Of a stretch of 64,000 nucleotides of DNA, positions 56,743 through 61,705 are shown in pieces (within the stretch, counting starts at the first letter, position 1; each line of letters begins with the position of its first letter). Both the position numbers and the translations under genes were made by a program. The stretch lies in the IMG/VR virus record IMGVR_UViG_3300042566_001359. One strand, given 5' to 3'. Under the pieces are notes generated by a model. That model did no database searches, had not been told where the DNA came from, and saw only the letters and a program-made list of their open reading frames with translations. The DNA is from a virus. Taxonomy: Duplodnaviria > Heunggongvirae > Uroviricota > Caudoviricetes > Demerecviridae.

Positions 56743-57136
56743 TATATTTGCCAGCTTATTCTGTTACGAGGGAAGCCGAGCGAGAAACCCTAAGCAGTTT
56801 TTAAGCTGCTAGTGCGTACGTTTGATCGTTTGCGTTTATTTTTGTTTTGTGTCTGCGGCCAGGTAGAGCGTCTTTTTGTGCTATATGCACAACGACTACA
56901 CTTTGCCCCCAACCCTACGGCTTCTACATTGCCGAGTTGTCTACTTTGCTACTCTTAGCCCGGTCGATCCTGTGTCAGGCCCATCAAAAGCATACTACTA
57001 GCATATAAGCTAAAAGAGCCGATCCTTCCAACCGCTGTCGGCCACCCTTTGGGTAGGGTAATATACTTATGGTGGACCTGGCGGGCACTGCCCCCGCGTG
57101 TCGAACTCTTTTGGGTCTGCTTCATACAACCATATT

Positions 57137-57618: not shown

Positions 57619-58146
57619 TTAAGCCAATATAAATTTTAAACGGTCAGCAGCATAGCTTGCTGCAAAAGCATTTGGTTTTACTTGAGCATCTACGTTACAA
57701 GTGCCCTTGATATAACCAATAGCCTGCTGCACAACACAGCTAGAGCCGTACAGTAGGTTTGGGTTAATATCCAAGTGAACTTCAACGTGACGATCTTGTA
57801 ACACATCACTTAGTTCATGAAATAGGTCCGAAACCTTGTAAACTTCTTGCATTAACCTGAGTGCGGGTTTAGATACACGTTGATCAAAGTCGCGTTCACG
57901 ACTAATGCTACCAAAAATTTTGCAACCGTGATTGCCGTCAATGTGTACTACAACTGCTAAGGTATAGTCAGCGTGCCATACACCATTAACTTTAACACGT
58001 TCGCTATCCGCACCAAGATAAACCTTTGTTTCTGCGCTCTGTGCTTGAATGAAGTCTTTGACTTCTTGTAAGTTAAATTCGTGCATAGTTGTGGTTGTGT
58101 AAAGTATATTATGGTAGGCCCTGAGAGAATCAAACTCCCACTTCAA
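57619..58146 (-). CDS. Hypothetical protein
   Basis: 175 aa. Confidence 0.5.
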   Translation of the reverse strand: MKWEFDSLRAYHNILYTTTTMHEFNLQEVKDFIQAQSAETKVYLGADSERVKVNGVWHADYTLAVVVHIDGNHGCKIFGSISRERDFDQRVSKPALRLMQEVYKVSDLFHELSDVLQDRHVEVHLDINPNLLYGSSCVVQQAIGYIKGTCNVDAQVKPNAFAASYAADRLKFILA

Positions 58147-58168: not shown

Positions 58169-58762
58169 TCATTTTACTAAAGGCCTATTGTCTAGTTCTA
58201 CGGCAATATCTAAAAATATCTTATCACTATTTATTCTGTGAATGTACGCATGGTGTGTAGGACATAAATATACTAAGTTAGATAGGTCATTATTATACCT
58301 ATTCTCATCTATATGATGTACGTCTAGTATTAGGTTTTCTTCACATGAACAGCATTTAATTTTAAGATCGTTGTCTTTATAAAATCTATTTAAATACTCT
58401 ACGTAGCTATAGCTTCCGTCTTTCCTGTTTTTTGCCCCTTGAGTATGAGCAAAAAACTTATTACCACAGTTATAAGAGCATGTAGTCGGCTCTTTACCAG
58501 AAGATAAAAACTCAAATTCATTGTTACACTGTGGGCAAACTTTACTAATTAATTTAGCAGGCTCTTTGCCGTTAGCTGTAAAGTGAGAAGTACTAATATT
58601 GTGTAAAAGACAATAGTCTTTTATCATCTTACCGTACCTGTAGTTTTTGGAATAACCTAATGCTTGTGCAACTATTACGGCAGCGTGAGCGTTAGATATT
58701 AGTTCTAGTAGTTCTCCAGATTTATGGCTATCTTCTAAAACTTTTAAAAATGTTGTTGACAT
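58169..58762 (-). CDS. HNH homing endonuclease
   Basis: DVHHIDENRYNNDLSNLVYLCPTHHAYIH HNH motif plus Cys4 zinc ribbon. Confidence 0.8.
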   Translation of the reverse strand: MSTTFLKVLEDSHKSGELLELISNAHAAVIVAQALGYSKNYRYGKMIKDYCLLHNISTSHFTANGKEPAKLISKVCPQCNNEFEFLSSGKEPTTCSYNCGNKFFAHTQGAKNRKDGSYSYVEYLNRFYKDNDLKIKCCSCEENLILDVHHIDENRYNNDLSNLVYLCPTHHAYIHRINSDKIFLDIAVELDNRPLVK

Positions 58763-58996: not shown

Positions 58997-59000
58997 ATAC

Positions 59001-59092
59001 TTAATACTAGCGCCCGGTACGCCATCCCCGAGTGAGCTTCAGTGGCAGAGAAGGATGCCACTTACACACTATAGCGCATTCTCGCTAGTATT
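59001..59092. repeat. Perfect 12-bp inverted repeat TTAATACTAGCG...CGCTAGTATTAA enclosing 68 nt, between tRNA-Asn and tRNA-Asp
   Basis: direct reading. Confidence 0.8.
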
Positions 59093-59188
59093 AAATATGC
59101 TGCTTACGATATACAGCGTGACATTGTCGTAGTCACCGATTGGATTACGGACGCTCTAACCGGAACGGCACGGACCTAAGGCAGGTTT

Positions 59189-59263
59189 TGGCGGTCTAGA
59201 GGGGTAACGATCCCCTTCTACAGCAGTGACAGTGCTGTGTGCGTCCATGAACACTTCTAAACC
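59189..59263 (-). tRNA. tRNA-Asp (GTC)
   Basis: CAGCA-CUGUCAC-UGCUG, T-arm AGGGG-AUCGUUA-CCCCU, acceptor GGUUUAG/CUAGACC, encoded CCA. Confidence 0.8.
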
Positions 59264-59444: not shown

Positions 59445-59495
59445 GTTTAAAGAATAATTATACCGCAAATAGCAAATCACGGCAAATCTAAATTT

Positions 59496-59570
59496 TGGCA
59501 CCCCTCCAGGGACTCGAACCCTGACCAACGGTTTTGGAGACCGCGATGCTGCCAATTACACCAAAGAGAT
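59496..59570 (-). tRNA. tRNA-Trp (CCA)
   Basis: GCGGU-CUCCAAA-ACCGU as in E. coli tRNA-Trp; acceptor with three G-U pairs. Confidence 0.75.
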
Positions 59571-59595
59571 AAAATGCTTGGAATTATGCGTTACA

Positions 59596-59700
59596 GAGTT
59601 TTGTCGGGCTTTCACACCCGGTGCCATACCACTTGGCGAATTTCCCAATGGGAGATAAAAGAATCGAACTTTTGATGAAACTGTAACTATCGCCAAAGCA
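59596..59700 (-). ncRNA. tRNA-like module (perfect T-arm AAAAG-UUCGAUU-CUUUU and acceptor-like helix UUGGCGA/UCGCCAA enclosing an extra hairpin); candidate Y-RNA-like / Ro60-associated RNA
   Basis: manual folding; no anticodon arm; lies 250-350 nt 3' of the Ro60 homologue on the same strand. Confidence 0.35.
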
Positions 59701-59943
59701 ATAATAATAAAAAACCTTAGAACAACTATTGCAGCGATTTGGTTAGATTAGAAGTCTAGAAGTAACTGCAAAAAACACTAAAGGCTTAGAATAAGACTAG
59801 AAAAAGCAACGCGGGTATTTGTTTTTCAAACCATATTGAGAAGTAACCGCATCTAGCACTAAGTCCTATTCTAAGCCTTCGCTTAGAGCCCCACTCTCTC
59901 GCTCTGACCGGCTGGCTACGGTTCCTAGCGTGGGTTAGTATTA

Positions 59944-61320
59944 TTAAAGCACTTCTGCTTCGAGGGCTTGAATGTAATCAATCACAGCTTCGGAGAAACC
60001 AGTAATGGTTTCCCACTCAGCACTGTTGATGCCATTCTGATAAGAACCAACGTTCAGGATGTAGTTTTTGTCACGGGACAAACGCTTGGCTTTGTGAGGT
60101 TCGAAACCTCGGCCACCTGTGTCTTGTTCATCTGTAAACACGATTACTCGGTCTACAAAATTATCATGTTCTTGGCTGGCGATATAGTCCATAGCTTGCA
60201 CTAAGAAGATACCGCCACCGCCGATACGACGGCCGACCTCTGCACTGCGGATGTAGTCGCTGAGTGCAAAACCACGTCGATTTGGAATCAACATAGTTGC
60301 ATGTTTGCGAGTACCATCATTACCGGCTGTTGCGTAGATAACTACTTCTTCGCAGATTTCTCGTGCCAAGATAGCCAGTGAACAAGCAGCATCAAGACGA
60401 GAAATCTCGCTTTTAGCGCTTATTGTTTGCCCCATAGAGCCGCTAGTGTCAACCACCAAAACTGTACGTCCTGGTAGTTTAGCTTGTGTTGACAAGCTTG
60501 CTAGCATCATGCGCTCAAGCATACCCTCAAATTGAGGGACTTGACGGGCCGCAGAAATGTACCGGAAAGGCAACACTTTTGAAGCGTCAATGGTTTTTGA
60601 GTAAGCCTCAATCTCGGACTGAGAAATACCTGCTTGAGTCATGTTACGCAAGTTACGTAAGAATGCTAGTGCACCCAATTTGTTTTCACGCATAAGACGT
60701 GAGAATGTTTCAAGCTTATCAGCGCCCGCACTTAGTTGAGTTTCCCAGGTATCTGGAGTTTCCAACTTGTCTTCAGCAATTCGTTTGAATAGCTCGGCTT
60801 GCACAGCCGTTTGCGGTTTAGGGTGGCTCAGGAACATAACATCACGCAAGCGAATCGCTGCTGAGTTTTTGTCCCACTTGGCCAGCTGATACTCGCTGAA
60901 CTTGTTAAAACAAGCAGCAAGACCACGTTTAACCTGATTGCTCAGGGCTGACTTGCCGTCTTTCCAGTAAATGCTCAGGAATTCAGACATTTCGTCTGGA
61001 CGCTGAATAACACTGGTAAGGGCATTTGCTTGTAGTTTACCGTGACGTGCGAGTTCACGAACAAGCAGCAGAGGAACGTGACGAAGTTTGAACTTAGTAC
61101 GAGCCTCTAGTGCTAGTGCGGCAACCCGATCAGGGTTCACACTAGCTACCACGCTTTTAATCAGTTCAGCATGGCTTTTTCCATCAACATAAAACTGGTC
61201 TTCCCACAGCATTGCTGCCAGGGTCAAGCGACGCAGTTGTCGTTCTGGATTAATAGTGCGTACTGGAGTACCAACACTGTTAACAGTCATTGAAGCGGAT
61301 TTGCGATTAATCGCGGACAT
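59944..61320 (-). CDS. rsr: Ro60-like TROVE-domain protein with C-terminal von Willebrand A domain (Rsr homologue)
   Basis: 458 aa; N-terminal region with TROVE-like pattern (R.L...FY.DG...RTKFKLRHVPLLLVRELA); C-terminal MIDAS motif LVVDTSGSM; RBS AAGGA 8 nt upstream. Confidence 0.7.
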   Translation of the reverse strand: MSAINRKSASMTVNSVGTPVRTINPERQLRRLTLAAMLWEDQFYVDGKSHAELIKSVVASVNPDRVAALALEARTKFKLRHVPLLLVRELARHGKLQANALTSVIQRPDEMSEFLSIYWKDGKSALSNQVKRGLAACFNKFSEYQLAKWDKNSAAIRLRDVMFLSHPKPQTAVQAELFKRIAEDKLETPDTWETQLSAGADKLETFSRLMRENKLGALAFLRNLRNMTQAGISQSEIEAYSKTIDASKVLPFRYISAARQVPQFEGMLERMMLASLSTQAKLPGRTVLVVDTSGSMGQTISAKSEISRLDAACSLAILAREICEEVVIYATAGNDGTRKHATMLIPNRRGFALSDYIRSAEVGRRIGGGGIFLVQAMDYIASQEHDNFVDRVIVFTDEQDTGGRGFEPHKAKRLSRDKNYILNVGSYQNGINSAEWETITGFSEAVIDYIQALEAEVL

Positions 61321-61349
61321 GGATTTTTCCTTGTAAATAAGTAAGAACT

Positions 61350-61450
61350 AGGCGAAACAGAGATTTTAGCGCTCTACCAACTGAGCTACTCGACACACTA
61401 AAGTGCCAGAGGATGGACTCGAACCACCGACCTCTCGTTTAACAGACGAA
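61350..61450 (-). ncRNA. Circularly permuted tRNA-like element (T-arm, loop-closed acceptor hairpin, D-arm) flanked by bulged helix; candidate YrlA-type Y RNA immediately 5' of rsr
   Basis: minus-strand order: AAACGAGAGG / GGUGG-UUCGAGU-CCAUC / CUCUGGCAC-UUUAGU-GUGUCGAGU / GCUC-AGUUGGUA-GAGC / CUCU(U)GUUU pairing back to the 5' strand. Confidence 0.5.
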
Positions 61451-61705
61451 GTAACTGTTTCTTTCACTATACCTAAATTAAACACACTGGCTAAGAATCT
61501 GCGAAAGCAGTTCTTGGAATTGTTTAGCGTCTACATCGCCTAAGACGTTTGCACGGTTTAAAGTGTGTGGCTACCACAATTTGTGTGCCACAAGGGCATA
61601 CAGCTTTAGTATGAAGTAACTGACTTCTATCACTATAGCCAAAGTGTTTAATTTAAGTATAAATTATATCAAATATAACTTACACTGGCAAGTTTGTATT
61701 TTTAG

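What the first reader, a model, noticed from the sequence alone, without database searches (positions are those of the whole stretch)
59596..59943. Structured non-coding region 3' of rsr: tRNA-like module without anticodon arm plus a ~25-bp imperfect hairpin
The 59596..59700 RNA has a perfect T-arm (AAAAG-UUCGAUU-CUUUU) and a 7-bp acceptor-like helix (UUGGCGA/UCGCCAA), but no D or anticodon arm, and carries an extra hairpin (UCCC-AUU-GGGA). Further 3', GGCUUAGAAUAAGACUAG pairs with CUAGCACUAAGUCCUAUUCUAAGCC around a 40-nt loop. No ORF of 60 aa or longer exists on either strand across 59571..59943. This may be a second Y-RNA-like molecule (YrlB-like), a processing element or a decayed tRNA.
Basis: seen in the sequence. 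Interest (0 to 1): 0.6.

Follow-up and report, generated by a model that had tools for sequence, protein, structure and literature searches.

The report
Three tandem phage Y RNA genes
The stretch just after this phage's Ro60-like gene (rsr) is not one odd tRNA remnant: it holds three back-to-back Y RNA genes, small RNAs that dock onto the Ro60 protein, one of which carries a complete rearranged tRNA shape, and before them sits a conserved RNA hairpin motif that has not been described.

Summary
All genes here are on the minus strand. Between the rsr stop codon (59944) and tRNA-Trp (59570) lie four conserved structured RNA units.

- **U0 (59934..59890):** a hairpin motif with no Rfam match.
- **Y1 (59877..59783):**
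- **Y2 (59784..59715):** a small Y RNA.
- **Y3 (59700..59575):** a YrlA-like Y RNA with a tRNA-like module.

All three Y units share one core with more than 100 distinct Y units found next to rsr in related phage contigs: 5' U-RG-YG, a helix, UUAC; then the helix, U-UNUUC-Y at the 3' side. Covariation for this core is strong.

It appears only because the lower boundary 59596 cuts off the 3' strand of Y3's stem. Y3 does have a D arm and an anticodon-like arm.

After in-silico circular permutation, ARAGORN calls all 14 orthologous modules as tRNAs. Shuffled (0 of 500) and native (0 of 14) sequences give none.

Verdict: a known kind (bacterial and phage Y RNAs), with Y3 as a new variant that Rfam's YrlA model does not detect. 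U0 is unexplained.

The parts
59944..61320 (-). rsr, the Ro60 orthologue (TROVE + VWA), 458 aa. The RNAs below lie directly 3' of it.
   Evidence: ORF list. Pfam TROVE E=2e-13, VWA_2 E=9e-5. tblastn hits to phage 'TROVE domain-containing/RNA-binding protein' genes, best Ralstonia phage RsoM2USA at 52%.
59890..59934 (-). U0 motif. Outer helix CCCAC/GUGGG (59934..59930 with 59894..59890), purine-rich internal loops, inner helix ACCG/CGGU (59922..59919 with 59910..59907), and an 8-nt loop UAGCCAGC (59918..59911) closed by an almost invariant G-C pair. Function unknown.
   Evidence: Model R3 scores 57.8 bits, E=7e-10; it is the only hit in the 64-kb window, and all 34 hits in relatives lie on the rsr strand. 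On 32 distinct sequences 10 of 10 pairs have compensatory changes; 90.6% of cells pair against 24-45% when partners are slid. No Rfam match at E<=10.
59881..59887 (-). 'Mimic' segment UCUAAGC. It is complementary to the first bases of Y1 (GCUUAGA, 59876..59870) and is a copy of Y1's 3' end, so it can form a hairpin that competes with Y1's basal stem.
   Evidence: By eye on upstream flanks of 40+ Y1 orthologues, the segment changes together with the Y1 5' strand (CUAAAGCC/GGCUUUAG, CCAAAGUC/GACUUUGG, CUUAAGUC/GACUUAAG, CUUAAAUA/UAUUUAAG and others). The loop in L034 is cUUCGg. A helix of 7 bp or more is found in 12 of 16 sequence types, against 26% for mismatched pairings.
59783..59877 (-). It has an 18-bp basal stem with a bulged U, an internal loop (5' UG..., 3' ...UUUUUC), a 7-bp upper helix, and a loop of about 31 nt that begins UUACUUCU.
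   Evidence: Model R2 scores 77.2 bits, E=2.5e-15, with 48 of 48 hits on the rsr strand. On 42 distinct sequences, 22 of 25 pairs have compensatory changes and 98.7% of cells pair against 33-50% slid. MFE equals the comparative structure, z=-4.86.
59715..59784 (-). Y2, a small Y RNA. P1 is CCUUUAG/CUAAGG, which shares its first two C's with the end of Y1. P2 is UUGCAG/CUGCAA, followed by UUAC. The loop contains a 4-bp hairpin UAGA-CUUCUAA-UCUA (59758..59744).
   Evidence: Model R1 hit at 59712..59786, 33.5 bits, E=1e-4 in the window. MFE reproduces P1, P2 and the inner hairpin. In orthologues the stems covary (CCCUUUG/CAAGGG; UAUCGG/CCGAUA) and the inner hairpin changes from UAGA/UCUA to AAGA/UCUU in L016 (by eye).
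59575..59700 (-). Y3, a YrlA-like Y RNA. P1 UGCUU-GG/CCAAGCA; Ro-type motif GGCGAUAG (59694..59687); P2 UUACAG/CUGUAA (59686..59681 with 59596..59591); T arm 59673..59657; closed 7-bp acceptor analogue AUCUCCC-AUU-GGGAAAU 59656..59640; UC; D arm 59637..59623; A; anticodon-like hairpin 59620..59605. Four U's then lead into tRNA-Trp (59570).
   Evidence: Model R1 scores 140.9 bits, E=7e-26. On 14 orthologues, 19 of 33 pairs have compensatory changes and 96.1% of cells pair against 35-49% slid. MFE of the full unit equals the comparative structure. ARAGORN of 14 permuted modules as tRNA, 0 of 500 shuffles and 0 of 14 native sequences.
59496..59570 (-). tRNA-Trp(CCA), 4 nt after Y3. Its RNase P site would set the 3' end of Y3 (inference).
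   Evidence: ARAGORN. Rfam tRNA 45.2 bits.
61663..61691 (-). Promoter-like site TTGCCA-17-TATAAT with an extended -10 TG, upstream of the whole Ya-Yb-rsr-U0-Y1-Y2-Y3-tRNA-Trp block.
   Evidence: Consensus scan, 11 of 12 matches. The next promoter-like site on this strand lies after tRNA-Trp (59485..59457). No terminator-like site on the minus strand within 59571..59943. This is a consensus match only.

Best explanation
The 370 nt between rsr and tRNA-Trp encode three tandem Y RNAs (Y1, Y2, Y3) on the rsr strand, preceded by a conserved hairpin motif (U0).

**Shown here.**
- Each Y unit is closed by pairing of its own 5' and 3' ends.
- Each carries the same conserved core: a basal helix, an asymmetric internal loop (5' U-RG-YG, 3' U-UNUUC-Y), a 6-7 bp upper helix, then UUAC. 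A unit-specific distal module follows.
- Y1's distal module is a loop of about 31 nt that begins UUACUUCU.
- Y2's is a small 7-nt-loop hairpin.
- Y3's is a complete tRNA-like body in permuted order: T arm, closed 7-bp acceptor analogue, D arm, anticodon-like arm.

**Inferred from characterised Y RNAs** (D. radiodurans, S. Typhimurium, M. smegmatis, Thermus phage phiLo).
- The conserved core is the docking site for the phage Rsr ring.
- The distal modules tether Rsr to different partners, most likely host PNPase for the simple ones and a tRNA-binding factor for Y3.
- Several specialised RNPs for degrading or repairing structured RNA would thus form during infection.
- The units are probably cut out of one transcript that starts at the promoter-like site at 61691 and runs through rsr into tRNA-Trp, with RNase P cleavage at tRNA-Trp trimming Y3's 3' end.

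**How Y3 differs from canonical YrlA.** The Rsr-binding stem leaves the tRNA-like body at the variable-arm position, not in place of the anticodon stem, so a whole L-shape with an anticodon-like arm would be displayed.
For: **Location and strand.**
- All R1, R2 and R3 hits lie on the rsr strand: 130 of 130, 48 of 48 and 34 of 34.

**Common core.**
- On 114 distinct Y units, 97.9% of cells pair, 14 of 14 pairs have compensatory changes, and 546 cells carry double changes. Slid controls give 36-53%.

**Unit-specific covariation.**
- Y3: 19 of 33 pairs.
- Y1: 22 of 25 pairs.

**Motifs.**
- Chen et al. 2014 define a GNCGAAN0-1G motif near the 5' end. Y3 has GGCGAUAG (7 of 8). Orthologues L011, L047 and L054 have GGCGAACG (8 of 8).
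- The conserved YUAY of YrlA corresponds to UUAC after the upper helix.

**tRNA features in Y3.**
- T loop UUCGAUU.
- D loop AGUGGUA, with GG.
- A U after the acceptor analogue (position 8).
- An invariant C before the T stem (position 48).

**Permutation test.**
- ARAGORN of 14 permuted modules, 0 of 500 shuffles and 0 of 14 native sequences.

**Same window.**
- A canonical-looking YrlA sits upstream of rsr at 61351..61461 (Rfam RF02553, 27.2 bits, E=0.003). It shares the same stem consensus.

**Published precedent.**
- Y RNAs lie within 4 kb of rsr on the same strand in 254 bacteria and 22 phages. There are at least two per characterised species, one of them tRNA-like and one a long hairpin. 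In D. radiodurans they are co-transcribed with a tRNA (PMC4201824).
- Phage phiLo Ro60 binds two phage Y RNA-like molecules and forms ternary complexes with them and host PNPase (PMC12135203).
Against: - There is no expression, processing or binding data for this phage. Every functional step rests on analogy.
- Rfam's YrlA model gives no hit on Y3 even at E<=10.
- Y3's T-stem and D-stem sequences (AAAAG/CUUUU, GCCA/UGGC) differ from the near-invariant ones that are thought to mark YrlA's effector site.
- Y1 and Y2 carry RGUG rather than a strict GNCGAA motif.
- The closest relative, L041 (Rsr 98% identical), lacks Y3 altogether, so Y3 is dispensable or recently gained.
- The alignments used for pair counts were fitted to the models, which favours the structures. 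The slid-partner controls offset this only in part.
- MFE z-scores of Y2 (-0.84) and Y3 (-1.32) are unremarkable taken alone.
Confidence: 0.82

Rival explanations
1. One reading: one tRNA-like RNA (59596..59700) closed by a 7-bp acceptor-like helix UUGGCGA/UCGCCAA, with a T arm and an extra hairpin but no D or anticodon arm, plus a separate hairpin.
For: The two heptamers are perfectly complementary in the window. The helix is the MFE of the fragment 59596..59700. 78% of cells pair across orthologues.
Against: - There are no compensatory changes, and 6 of 7 pairs vary only by breaking. L008, L016, L047 and L054 disrupt the helix while the competing P1 and D stems covary.
- The MFE of the complete unit does not contain this helix.
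Confidence: 0.03
2. Y3 is a decaying tRNA pseudogene left behind in a tRNA cluster, with no function.
For: It lies in an array of more than 20 tRNA genes. It has a tRNA-type T arm and D arm. The closest relative, L041, lacks it.
Against: - It is conserved in 14 contigs with compensatory changes in every helix.
- The arm order is permuted in the same way in all of them.
- It is always enclosed in a stem carrying the Y-RNA consensus.
- The T-loop and D-loop identity nucleotides are invariant.
Confidence: 0.03
3. Y3 is a circularly permuted pre-tRNA gene. Like the permuted tRNAs of some algae and archaea, it would be cut at the Y-like stem, ligated and opened at the acceptor loop to give a working or split tRNA, rather than acting as an Rsr-bound Y RNA.
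For: - ARAGORN of 14 permuted constructs, five of them with a CAU anticodon.
- The acceptor analogue is 7 bp long.
- Its loop begins GCCA in L004, L016 and L047, and GC in every loop of 4 nt or more.
- M. smegmatis YrlA is cut by RNase P and receives CCA in vivo.
- The idea was raised for YrlA in bioRxiv 10.1101/312249.
Against: - The anticodon-like loop is 6 to 9 nt long, and its sequence differs freely between close relatives (GUGAAA in the window; ARAGORN gives 'tRNA-???' for 5 of 14).
- The window's acceptor loop is only 3 nt.
- The enclosing stem carries the Rsr-type motif rather than a bulge-helix-bulge.
- No bacterial splicing endonuclease is known.
- The GCCA may come from a CCA-G-CCA slippage in the stem.
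Confidence: 0.07
4. The structures are cis-acting parts of the rsr mRNA 3' end (stabilisers, processing sites or attenuators), not trans-acting RNAs.
For: - They start 10 nt after the stop codon, with no promoter-like site between.
- The mimic segment gives two mutually exclusive pairings of Y1's 5' strand, like an attenuator.
- In L319 and L320, U0 plus mimic plus a plain hairpin with a U-rich tail precede a small ORF, with no rsr detected in the fetched stretches.
Against: - Y1-Y3 share their core with units that lie upstream of rsr, and with Rfam-detectable YrlA RNAs in relatives.
- Unit number and order vary as cassettes.
- Known Y RNAs are likewise processed from polycistronic precursors.
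- For U0 and the mimic, however, this reading is the best available one.
Confidence: 0.05

Closest known systems
YrlA (Rfam RF02553; S. Typhimurium, M. smegmatis and others; Chen et al. 2014, PMC4201824; crystal structure in bioRxiv 10.1101/312249)
   Same: - Encoded next to rsr on the same strand.
- The 5' and 3' ends form a stem with a GNCGAA-type motif, followed by YUAY.
- Internal tRNA-like module with the T arm 5' of a closed acceptor analogue and the D arm 3' of it.
- Conserved T-loop and D-loop nucleotides, U8 and a pyrimidine at position 48.
   Different: - Y3 has no V hairpin before the T arm.
- It has a hairpin after the D arm, so the Rsr stem sits at the variable-arm position and an anticodon-like arm is present. 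YrlA 'lacks the anticodon loop'.
- Its T-stem and D-stem sequences are unrelated to the near-invariant YrlA ones.
- It gets no Rfam hit at E<=10, whereas the unit upstream of rsr scores 27 bits.
[quoted passage not shown]
   Same: Y1 and Y2 are hairpins closed by their 5' and 3' ends, with an internal Ro-type loop and a loop whose 5' side is pyrimidine-rich (UUACUUCU). They sit beside a tRNA-like Y RNA in the same locus.
   Different: There is no sequence homology to Salmonella YrlB, whose homologues Chen et al. found only in S. enterica serovars. Y1's basal stem is unusually long (18 bp) and has an upstream competitor segment. Y2's loop holds a 7-nt-loop hairpin like the V arm of YrlA.
Yrl1/Yrl2 of Thermus phage phiLo (PMC12135203)
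   Same: Phage-encoded Y RNA-like genes beside a phage Ro60. Experiments there showed Ro60 binding and ternary complexes with host PNPase.
   Different: In phiLo there are two units, both upstream of the gene and identified by a CGAA motif. Here there are five units on both sides of rsr, and no tRNA-like module is reported for phiLo in the passages read.
Circularly permuted tRNA genes (Cyanidioschyzon merolae and others; cited)
   Same: The 3' half (T arm, acceptor 3' strand) precedes the 5' half (acceptor 5' strand, D arm, anticodon arm). The acceptor is initially closed, and the termini pair in a stem.
   Different: Those are processed to real tRNAs through a bulge-helix-bulge and a circular intermediate. 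Y3's enclosing stem carries Y-RNA motifs, and its anticodon loop is irregular and not conserved.

Membership tests
Bacterial/phage Y RNA (Chen et al. 2014 criteria) | Encoded within about 4 kb of the Ro60 orthologue, on the same strand | tested here: met
   Y1-Y3 lie 67-370 nt 3' of the rsr stop on the minus strand. All CM hits in relatives are on the rsr strand.
Bacterial/phage Y RNA (Chen et al. 2014 criteria) | Stem formed by the 5' and 3' ends | tested here: met
   P1 and P2 are supported by 14 of 14 covarying pairs on 114 distinct units.
Bacterial/phage Y RNA (Chen et al. 2014 criteria) | GNCGAAN0-1G motif near the 5' end | tested here: inconclusive
   Y3 has GGCGAUAG (7 of 8); orthologues L011, L047 and L054 have GGCGAACG (8 of 8). 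Y1 (AGUGCUAG) and Y2 (AGUGUUUU) match only the clade consensus RGYG.
Bacterial/phage Y RNA (Chen et al. 2014 criteria) | Bound by Rsr/Ro60 in vivo or in vitro | not testable with these tools
   Needs co-immunoprecipitation or EMSA.
YrlA (RF02553) | T arm and D arm with tRNA-type loops, separated by a closed acceptor-like stem-loop | tested here: met
   UUCGAUU T loop, AGUGGUA D loop and a 7-bp AS hairpin. All three helices covary.
YrlA (RF02553) | Rsr-binding stem takes the place of the anticodon stem; no anticodon loop; optional V hairpin 5' of the T arm | tested here: not met
   Y3 has no V hairpin. It has a conserved hairpin between the D arm and the 3' strand of the stem. ARAGORN places that hairpin as the anticodon arm.
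YrlA (RF02553) | Near-invariant T-stem and D-stem sequences (Rfam consensus GCGGG/CCCGC and GCUC/GAGC) | tested here: not met
   Y3 has AAAAG/CUUUU and GCCA/UGGC. The Rfam consensus is shown.
YrlA (RF02553) | Score at or above the Rfam gathering threshold (69 bits) | tested here: not met
   No hit on 59573..59701 at E<=10. As positive controls, relatives L019 (44.3 bits) and L034 (40.9 bits) and window 61351..61461 (27.2 bits) are detected below threshold.
YrlB/Yrn2-type simple Y RNA | [quoted passage not shown] | tested here: inconclusive
   Y1 has the long stem, and its loop starts UUACUUCU. But the loop is about 31 nt, and no sequence model of YrlB exists to score against.
tRNA gene | Cloverleaf in the normal order, detected by ARAGORN or Rfam RF00005 | tested here: not met
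   Not called in the window. 0 of 14 native units are called.
Circularly permuted tRNA gene | All four arms present in the order T - acceptor(3'/5') - D - anticodon | tested here: met
   14 of 14 permuted constructs are called by ARAGORN at default settings, against 0 of 500 shuffles.
Circularly permuted tRNA gene | 7-nt anticodon loop with a conserved anticodon | tested here: not met
   Loop length is 6-9 nt and the sequence is not conserved between orthologues.
Circularly permuted tRNA gene | Processing to a mature tRNA through a circular intermediate | not testable with these tools
   Needs RNA-seq junction reads or Northern blots.

The most novel reading that the evidence does not exclude
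Y3-type RNAs are a distinct class of Y RNA. A complete tRNA is fused in permuted order (T arm, acceptor 3' strand, remnant GCCA plus spacer, acceptor 5' strand, D arm, anticodon arm) into an Rsr-binding stem at the variable-arm position.

This is what the 'dimeric tRNA transcript' model for the origin of YrlA predicts for an early intermediate: the 3' half of tRNA copy 1 joined to the 5' half of copy 2. In relatives with long GCCA-starting acceptor loops, the RNA may be opened by RNase P into a two-piece, CCA-ended tRNA mimic held on Rsr.

Separately, the U0 hairpin with its invariant UAGYCAGY loop, together with the competing 'mimic' segment, may be an undescribed phage RNA switch or processing signal.
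Probability: 0.3. Interest if true: 0.7.

Novelty: new variant of a known kind. Interest (0 to 1): 0.5.

Why it matters
- **Scale of the locus.** Y RNAs next to Ro60 genes are established in bacteria and a few phages, so the presence of Y RNAs here is ordinary. What is new is that one phage rsr gene is surrounded by five Y units inside a tRNA/tmRNA cluster. This suggests a phage-borne RNA quality-control or repair toolkit with several interchangeable adaptor RNAs. Units are gained, lost and recombined as cassettes between close relatives.
- **Y3 extends the known range of tRNA mimicry by Y RNAs.** It keeps an anticodon-like arm and moves the Rsr stem to the variable-arm position. Current Rfam models miss it. 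It gives sequence-level material for testing the dimeric-tRNA origin hypothesis.
- **It offers a handle on YrlA's unknown effector.** Because a full L-shape is displayed, candidate partners include tRNA-binding enzymes that need the anticodon arm.
- **U0 is a well-supported structured RNA with no assigned function.**

Tried and rejected
- **DNA similarity to deposited phages.** The region gives no match by blastn. The 20 kb around it match only tRNA fragments. The phage is not in the collection.
- **Rfam.** Nothing in 59571..59943 at gathering thresholds or at E<=10, apart from chance-level isrK and c4-a1b1 hits.
Rejected by covariation and by folding the complete unit.
- **Coding potential.** Only ORFs of 46 aa or less.
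- **Terminators.** No terminator-like site on the minus strand inside the region. I considered that Y1's basal stem plus the following U's act as a terminator. This looked weak, because those U's belong to Y2's conserved CCUUUAGUG, and L016 and L034 lack them.
- **More Y3 orthologues, by T-arm pattern.** The viral scan returned 78 loci, but no new Y3 among the 68 additional loci searched with R1. The genome scan was flooded with stretches from unrelated genomes that I took to be ordinary tRNA genes and did not inspect. The pattern was too unspecific, and the single genome scan is spent.
- **A parental tRNA for the Y3 module.** Searched among all held loci by blastn-short. Nothing beyond T-arm-length matches.
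- **U0's loop pairing elsewhere.** A 6-bp complement (UGGCUA) exists in the 5' strand of the upstream unit Ya. I did not test it across relatives and treat it as possibly coincidental.
- **Literature on an rsr-associated hairpin motif.** Nothing found. The 2020 Annual Review on bacterial Ro60 is not held.
Full report
**Setting.** All genes in this part of the window are on the minus strand.
- ARAGORN finds 20 tRNA genes, and Rfam adds a permuted tmRNA at 56801..57131.
- The ORF 59944..61320 (minus, 458 aa) matches Pfam TROVE (E=2e-13) and weakly VWA.
- By tblastn its relatives are phage 'TROVE domain-containing/RNA-binding' proteins, best Ralstonia phage RsoM2USA at 52%. It is an Rsr/Ro60 orthologue.
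- The window has no DNA match in the deposited-phage collection.
- Relatives exist among uncultivated viral and metagenomic contigs. I fetched 38 viral and 80 metagenomic loci through the Rsr protein.
- The finding covers the gap between the rsr stop codon (59946..59944) and tRNA-Trp (59570..59496).

**Checking the observation.**
- The T arm, the small hairpin, the two complementary heptamers and the long imperfect hairpin are all in the sequence.
- No ORF of 60 aa or more crosses the region.
- Rfam reports nothing there, even at E<=10.
- The long hairpin is far more stable than chance: z=-4.86, 0 of 200 shuffles.
On the transcribed strand the hairpin lies 5' of the tRNA-like part, not 3'.

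**What relatives show.** When the sequences downstream of rsr in the relatives are lined up, the region resolves into four discrete, conserved units:
- U0 (59934..59890);
- Y1 (59877..59783);
- Y2 (59784..59715);
- Y3 (59700..59575).

Units come and go as cassettes.
- The closest relative (L041, Rsr 98% identical) has U0, Y1 and Y2, and then runs straight into tRNA-Trp with no Y3.
- L001, L042 and L044 carry the tRNA-like module inside a Y2-type stem, giving two units instead of three.
- L048 is a chimera of a Y2 5' half and a Y3 3' half.

**The common core.** A covariance model built from nine Y3 orthologues (R1) finds the true Y3 family at 82-154 bits.
- At 29-56 bits it also finds more than 100 other units around rsr in the relatives. 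All 130 hits are on the rsr strand.
- Their aligned ends show one consensus: a basal helix; U-RG-YG; about 4 nt; a 6-7 bp helix; UUAC; a variable module; the helix again; about 4 nt; U-UNUUC-Y; the basal helix.
- On 114 distinct sequences the two helices pair in 97.9% of cells. All 14 pairs have compensatory changes, in 546 cells. Slid-partner controls give 36-53%.
- This is the architecture described for bacterial Y RNAs: a stem made by the 5' and 3' ends, with a GNCGAAN0-1G motif near the 5' end and a conserved YUAY after it (PMC4201824).
- Y3 reads GGCGAUAG, and three orthologues read GGCGAACG.
- In the window, R1 also hits Y2 (33.5 bits), the inner part of Y1 (25.1 bits) and a unit upstream of rsr (39.1 bits).

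Model R2 scores the window copy at 77.2 bits and finds 48 copies, all on the rsr strand.
- On 42 distinct sequences, 22 of 25 pairs have compensatory changes and 98.7% of cells pair, against 33-50% slid.
- The unit is an 18-bp basal stem with a bulged U, the Ro-type internal loop, a 7-bp helix and a loop of about 31 nt that starts UUACUUCU.
- It fits the 'long hairpin with a pyrimidine-rich loop' type that accompanies the tRNA-like Y RNA in the three characterised bacteria.

**Y3, the tRNA-like unit.** The comparative structure has six helices:
- P1;
- P2;
- T arm AAAAG-UUCGAUU-CUUUU;
- a closed 7-bp acceptor analogue AUCUCCC-AUU-GGGAAAU;
- D arm GCCA-AGUGGUA-UGGC;
- a hairpin CGGGU-GUGAAA-GCCCG.

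On 14 orthologues 96.1% of cells pair and 19 of 33 pairs have compensatory changes, against 35-49% and 2-3 pairs when partners are slid.

- Its 5' strand is part of P1 and the Ro motif.
- Its 3' strand is the U8-N9 linker plus the D stem.
- Folding explains the error. The complete unit 59573..59701 gives the comparative structure as its MFE.

So the claims 'no D arm' and 'no anticodon arm' are wrong, and the 'extra hairpin' is the acceptor analogue.

**How tRNA-like is it?** The arm order is T, acceptor (closed), D, hairpin. That is a tRNA opened at the variable region and closed at the acceptor end.
- I permuted each of the 14 modules in silico: I cut the acceptor loop and replaced the Y stem by a 5-nt variable loop.
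- ARAGORN at default settings then called all 14 as tRNAs spanning the whole construct. It called 0 of 500 shuffles and 0 of 14 native units.
- The hairpin after the D arm is placed as the anticodon arm. Its loop is 6-9 nt and varies freely (GUGAAA in the window; CAU-centred 7-nt loops in five relatives).
- T-loop and D-loop identity nucleotides, U8 and C48 are invariant or nearly so.

Canonical YrlA has the Rsr stem in place of the anticodon stem and 'lacks the anticodon loop'. Many YrlAs also carry a V hairpin 5' of the T arm. Y3 has the hairpin on the other side of the stem, so the Rsr stem occupies the variable-arm position.

Rfam's YrlA model does detect Y RNAs in relatives (44.3 and 40.9 bits) and the unit upstream of rsr in the window (27.2 bits). 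It gives nothing on Y3. Y3's T-stem and D-stem sequences are unrelated to the near-invariant YrlA ones. I therefore class Y3 as a new variant, not as a member of RF02553.

**Origin.** The published model derives YrlA from a dimeric tRNA transcript, with the T arm from the first tRNA and the D arm from the second.
- Y3 looks like an early stage of that. It retains the second tRNA's anticodon arm.
- In L004, L016 and L047 the acceptor loop begins GCCA, which reads as a discriminator plus CCA. Every loop of 4 nt or more begins GC.
- This is suggestive only. The GCCA could also come from CCA-G-CCA slippage.
- I found no parental tRNA among the held loci.

**Expression context.** This rests on consensus scans only.
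- A near-consensus promoter-like site (TTGCCA-17-TATAAT with TG) lies at 61691..61663.
- The next site on this strand lies after tRNA-Trp.
- No terminator-like site lies inside the region.
- I infer one transcript covering Ya-Yb-rsr-U0-Y1-Y2-Y3-tRNA-Trp that is processed into its parts, as in D. radiodurans, where Yrn2, tRNA-Asp and Yrn1 share a precursor.
- Y3 ends 4 nt before tRNA-Trp, so RNase P would trim its 3' side.

**Mechanism.** By analogy with characterised systems, the conserved core docks the RNA on the Rsr ring, and the distal module recruits a partner.
- PNPase is the partner in D. radiodurans and S. Typhimurium.
- For phage phiLo, Ro60 binds two phage Y RNA-like molecules and forms ternary complexes with them and host PNPase.
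- Three different distal modules here, and five in the locus, imply several RNPs.
- None of this was testable with the tools. I give 0.82 to 'these are Y RNA genes', and less to any specific partner.

U0 has an outer helix, an inner helix and an 8-nt loop UAGYCAGY closed by an almost invariant G-C pair.
- R3 scores the window copy at 57.8 bits. It is the only hit in 64 kb, and there are 34 hits in relatives, all just 3' of rsr.
- 10 of 10 pairs have compensatory changes.
- A motif-first scan of IMG/VR also found it in three contigs. In those, the fetched stretch holds no rsr by tblastn with the window's Rsr and no Y RNA.
- In all three it follows a tRNA. In L319 and L320 it also precedes a plain hairpin and a small ORF.
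- So U0 is not obligately tied to rsr.

Immediately after U0, the segment UCUAAGC (59887..59881) is complementary to Y1's first bases and copies Y1's 3' end.
- It changes in step with Y1's stem in more than ten lineages.
- In L034 its loop is cUUCGg.
- The result is two exclusive pairings of Y1's 5' strand, like an attenuator or a processing switch.
- I could not decide what this does.

**Verdict.** The finding is real and conserved, but it is ordinary in kind: Y RNAs next to a phage Ro60 gene. New elements are the Y3 variant, the number and cassette-like turnover of units, and the unexplained U0/mimic elements.

Noticed in passing
window 61337..61475 (-): A canonical-looking YrlA upstream of rsr. 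It has a Y stem with UAUAGUGAAAG...UUAC, a V hairpin, T arm GGUGG-UUCGAGU-CCAUC, a closed acceptor analogue and D arm UAGCUCAGUUGGUAGAGC. Rfam RF02553 scores 27.2 bits (E=0.003, below the gathering score of 69). R1 scores 39.1 bits.
   Followed up: partly
window about 61500..61650 (-): A fifth Y-like unit (Ya). Its 5' side is GGCUAUAGUGAUAGAAGUCAGUUACUUC and its 3' side CUGCUUUCGCAGAUUCUUAGCC, enclosing an unknown internal module of about 105 nt. It was seen by eye only, and R1 did not report it. It starts just after the promoter-like site at 61691..61663.
   Followed up: partly
window 59890..59934 (-); also L318, L319, L320: The U0 motif (invariant UAGYCAGY loop) has strong covariation and no Rfam match. 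It also occurs in three phage contigs where tblastn with the window's Rsr finds no rsr and R1 finds no Y RNA in the fetched stretch.
   Followed up: partly
window 59881..59887 (-) with 59870..59876: A 'mimic' of Y1's 3' end can pair with Y1's 5' end. It covaries across lineages, and one relative has a UUCG tetraloop. This gives mutually exclusive structures.
   Followed up: partly
L001, L005, L007, L010, L012, L013, L042, L044, L048, L049, L319, L320 (downstream of the Y units): A small conserved ORF starting MSDGGKGSKPRP...W..RWDAIFGRD, with an AAGGAAA ribosome-binding site, follows the Y RNAs in many relatives. It follows U0 plus a hairpin in L319 and L320. It is absent from the window.
   Followed up: no
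L041 2875..3130 compared with window 59571..59720: The closest relative (Rsr 98% identical) lacks the Y3 cassette of about 135 nt. Y2 is joined to tRNA-Trp by CUUUU.
   Followed up: yes
window 56801..57131 (-): A permuted (two-piece) tmRNA gene lies inside the phage tRNA cluster (Rfam RF04321, 91.3 bits).
   Followed up: no
window 59189..59263 (-) and 58997..59188: ARAGORN's tRNA-Asp(GUC) at 59189..59263 is not recovered by Rfam's tRNA model, at gathering thresholds or at E<=10. The roughly 190 nt between it and tRNA-Asn are non-coding, G+C-richer and unassigned.
   Followed up: no
window 59457..59485 (-) and the equivalent sites in relatives: A conserved promoter-like block, AAATTTAGATTTGNC...TATAAT TATTCTTTAA, follows tRNA-Trp in the window and in many relatives. 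It may be this phage clade's promoter consensus.
   Followed up: no
window 57619..58146 (-), 58169..58762 (-): An RNase H-like ORF (PF04308, E=3e-17) and an ORF with a weak HNH_3 (HNH endonuclease) match below the Pfam cutoff (E=1.4e-4) are interspersed among the tRNA genes.
   Followed up: no
L007 6778..6894, L005 6813..6929, L012 6381..6497, L049 3998..4115 and others: In several relatives, further Y-like units (30-40 bits with R1) lie 1-1.5 kb downstream of rsr, beyond the first tRNAs. Some loci therefore carry six or more units.
   Followed up: no
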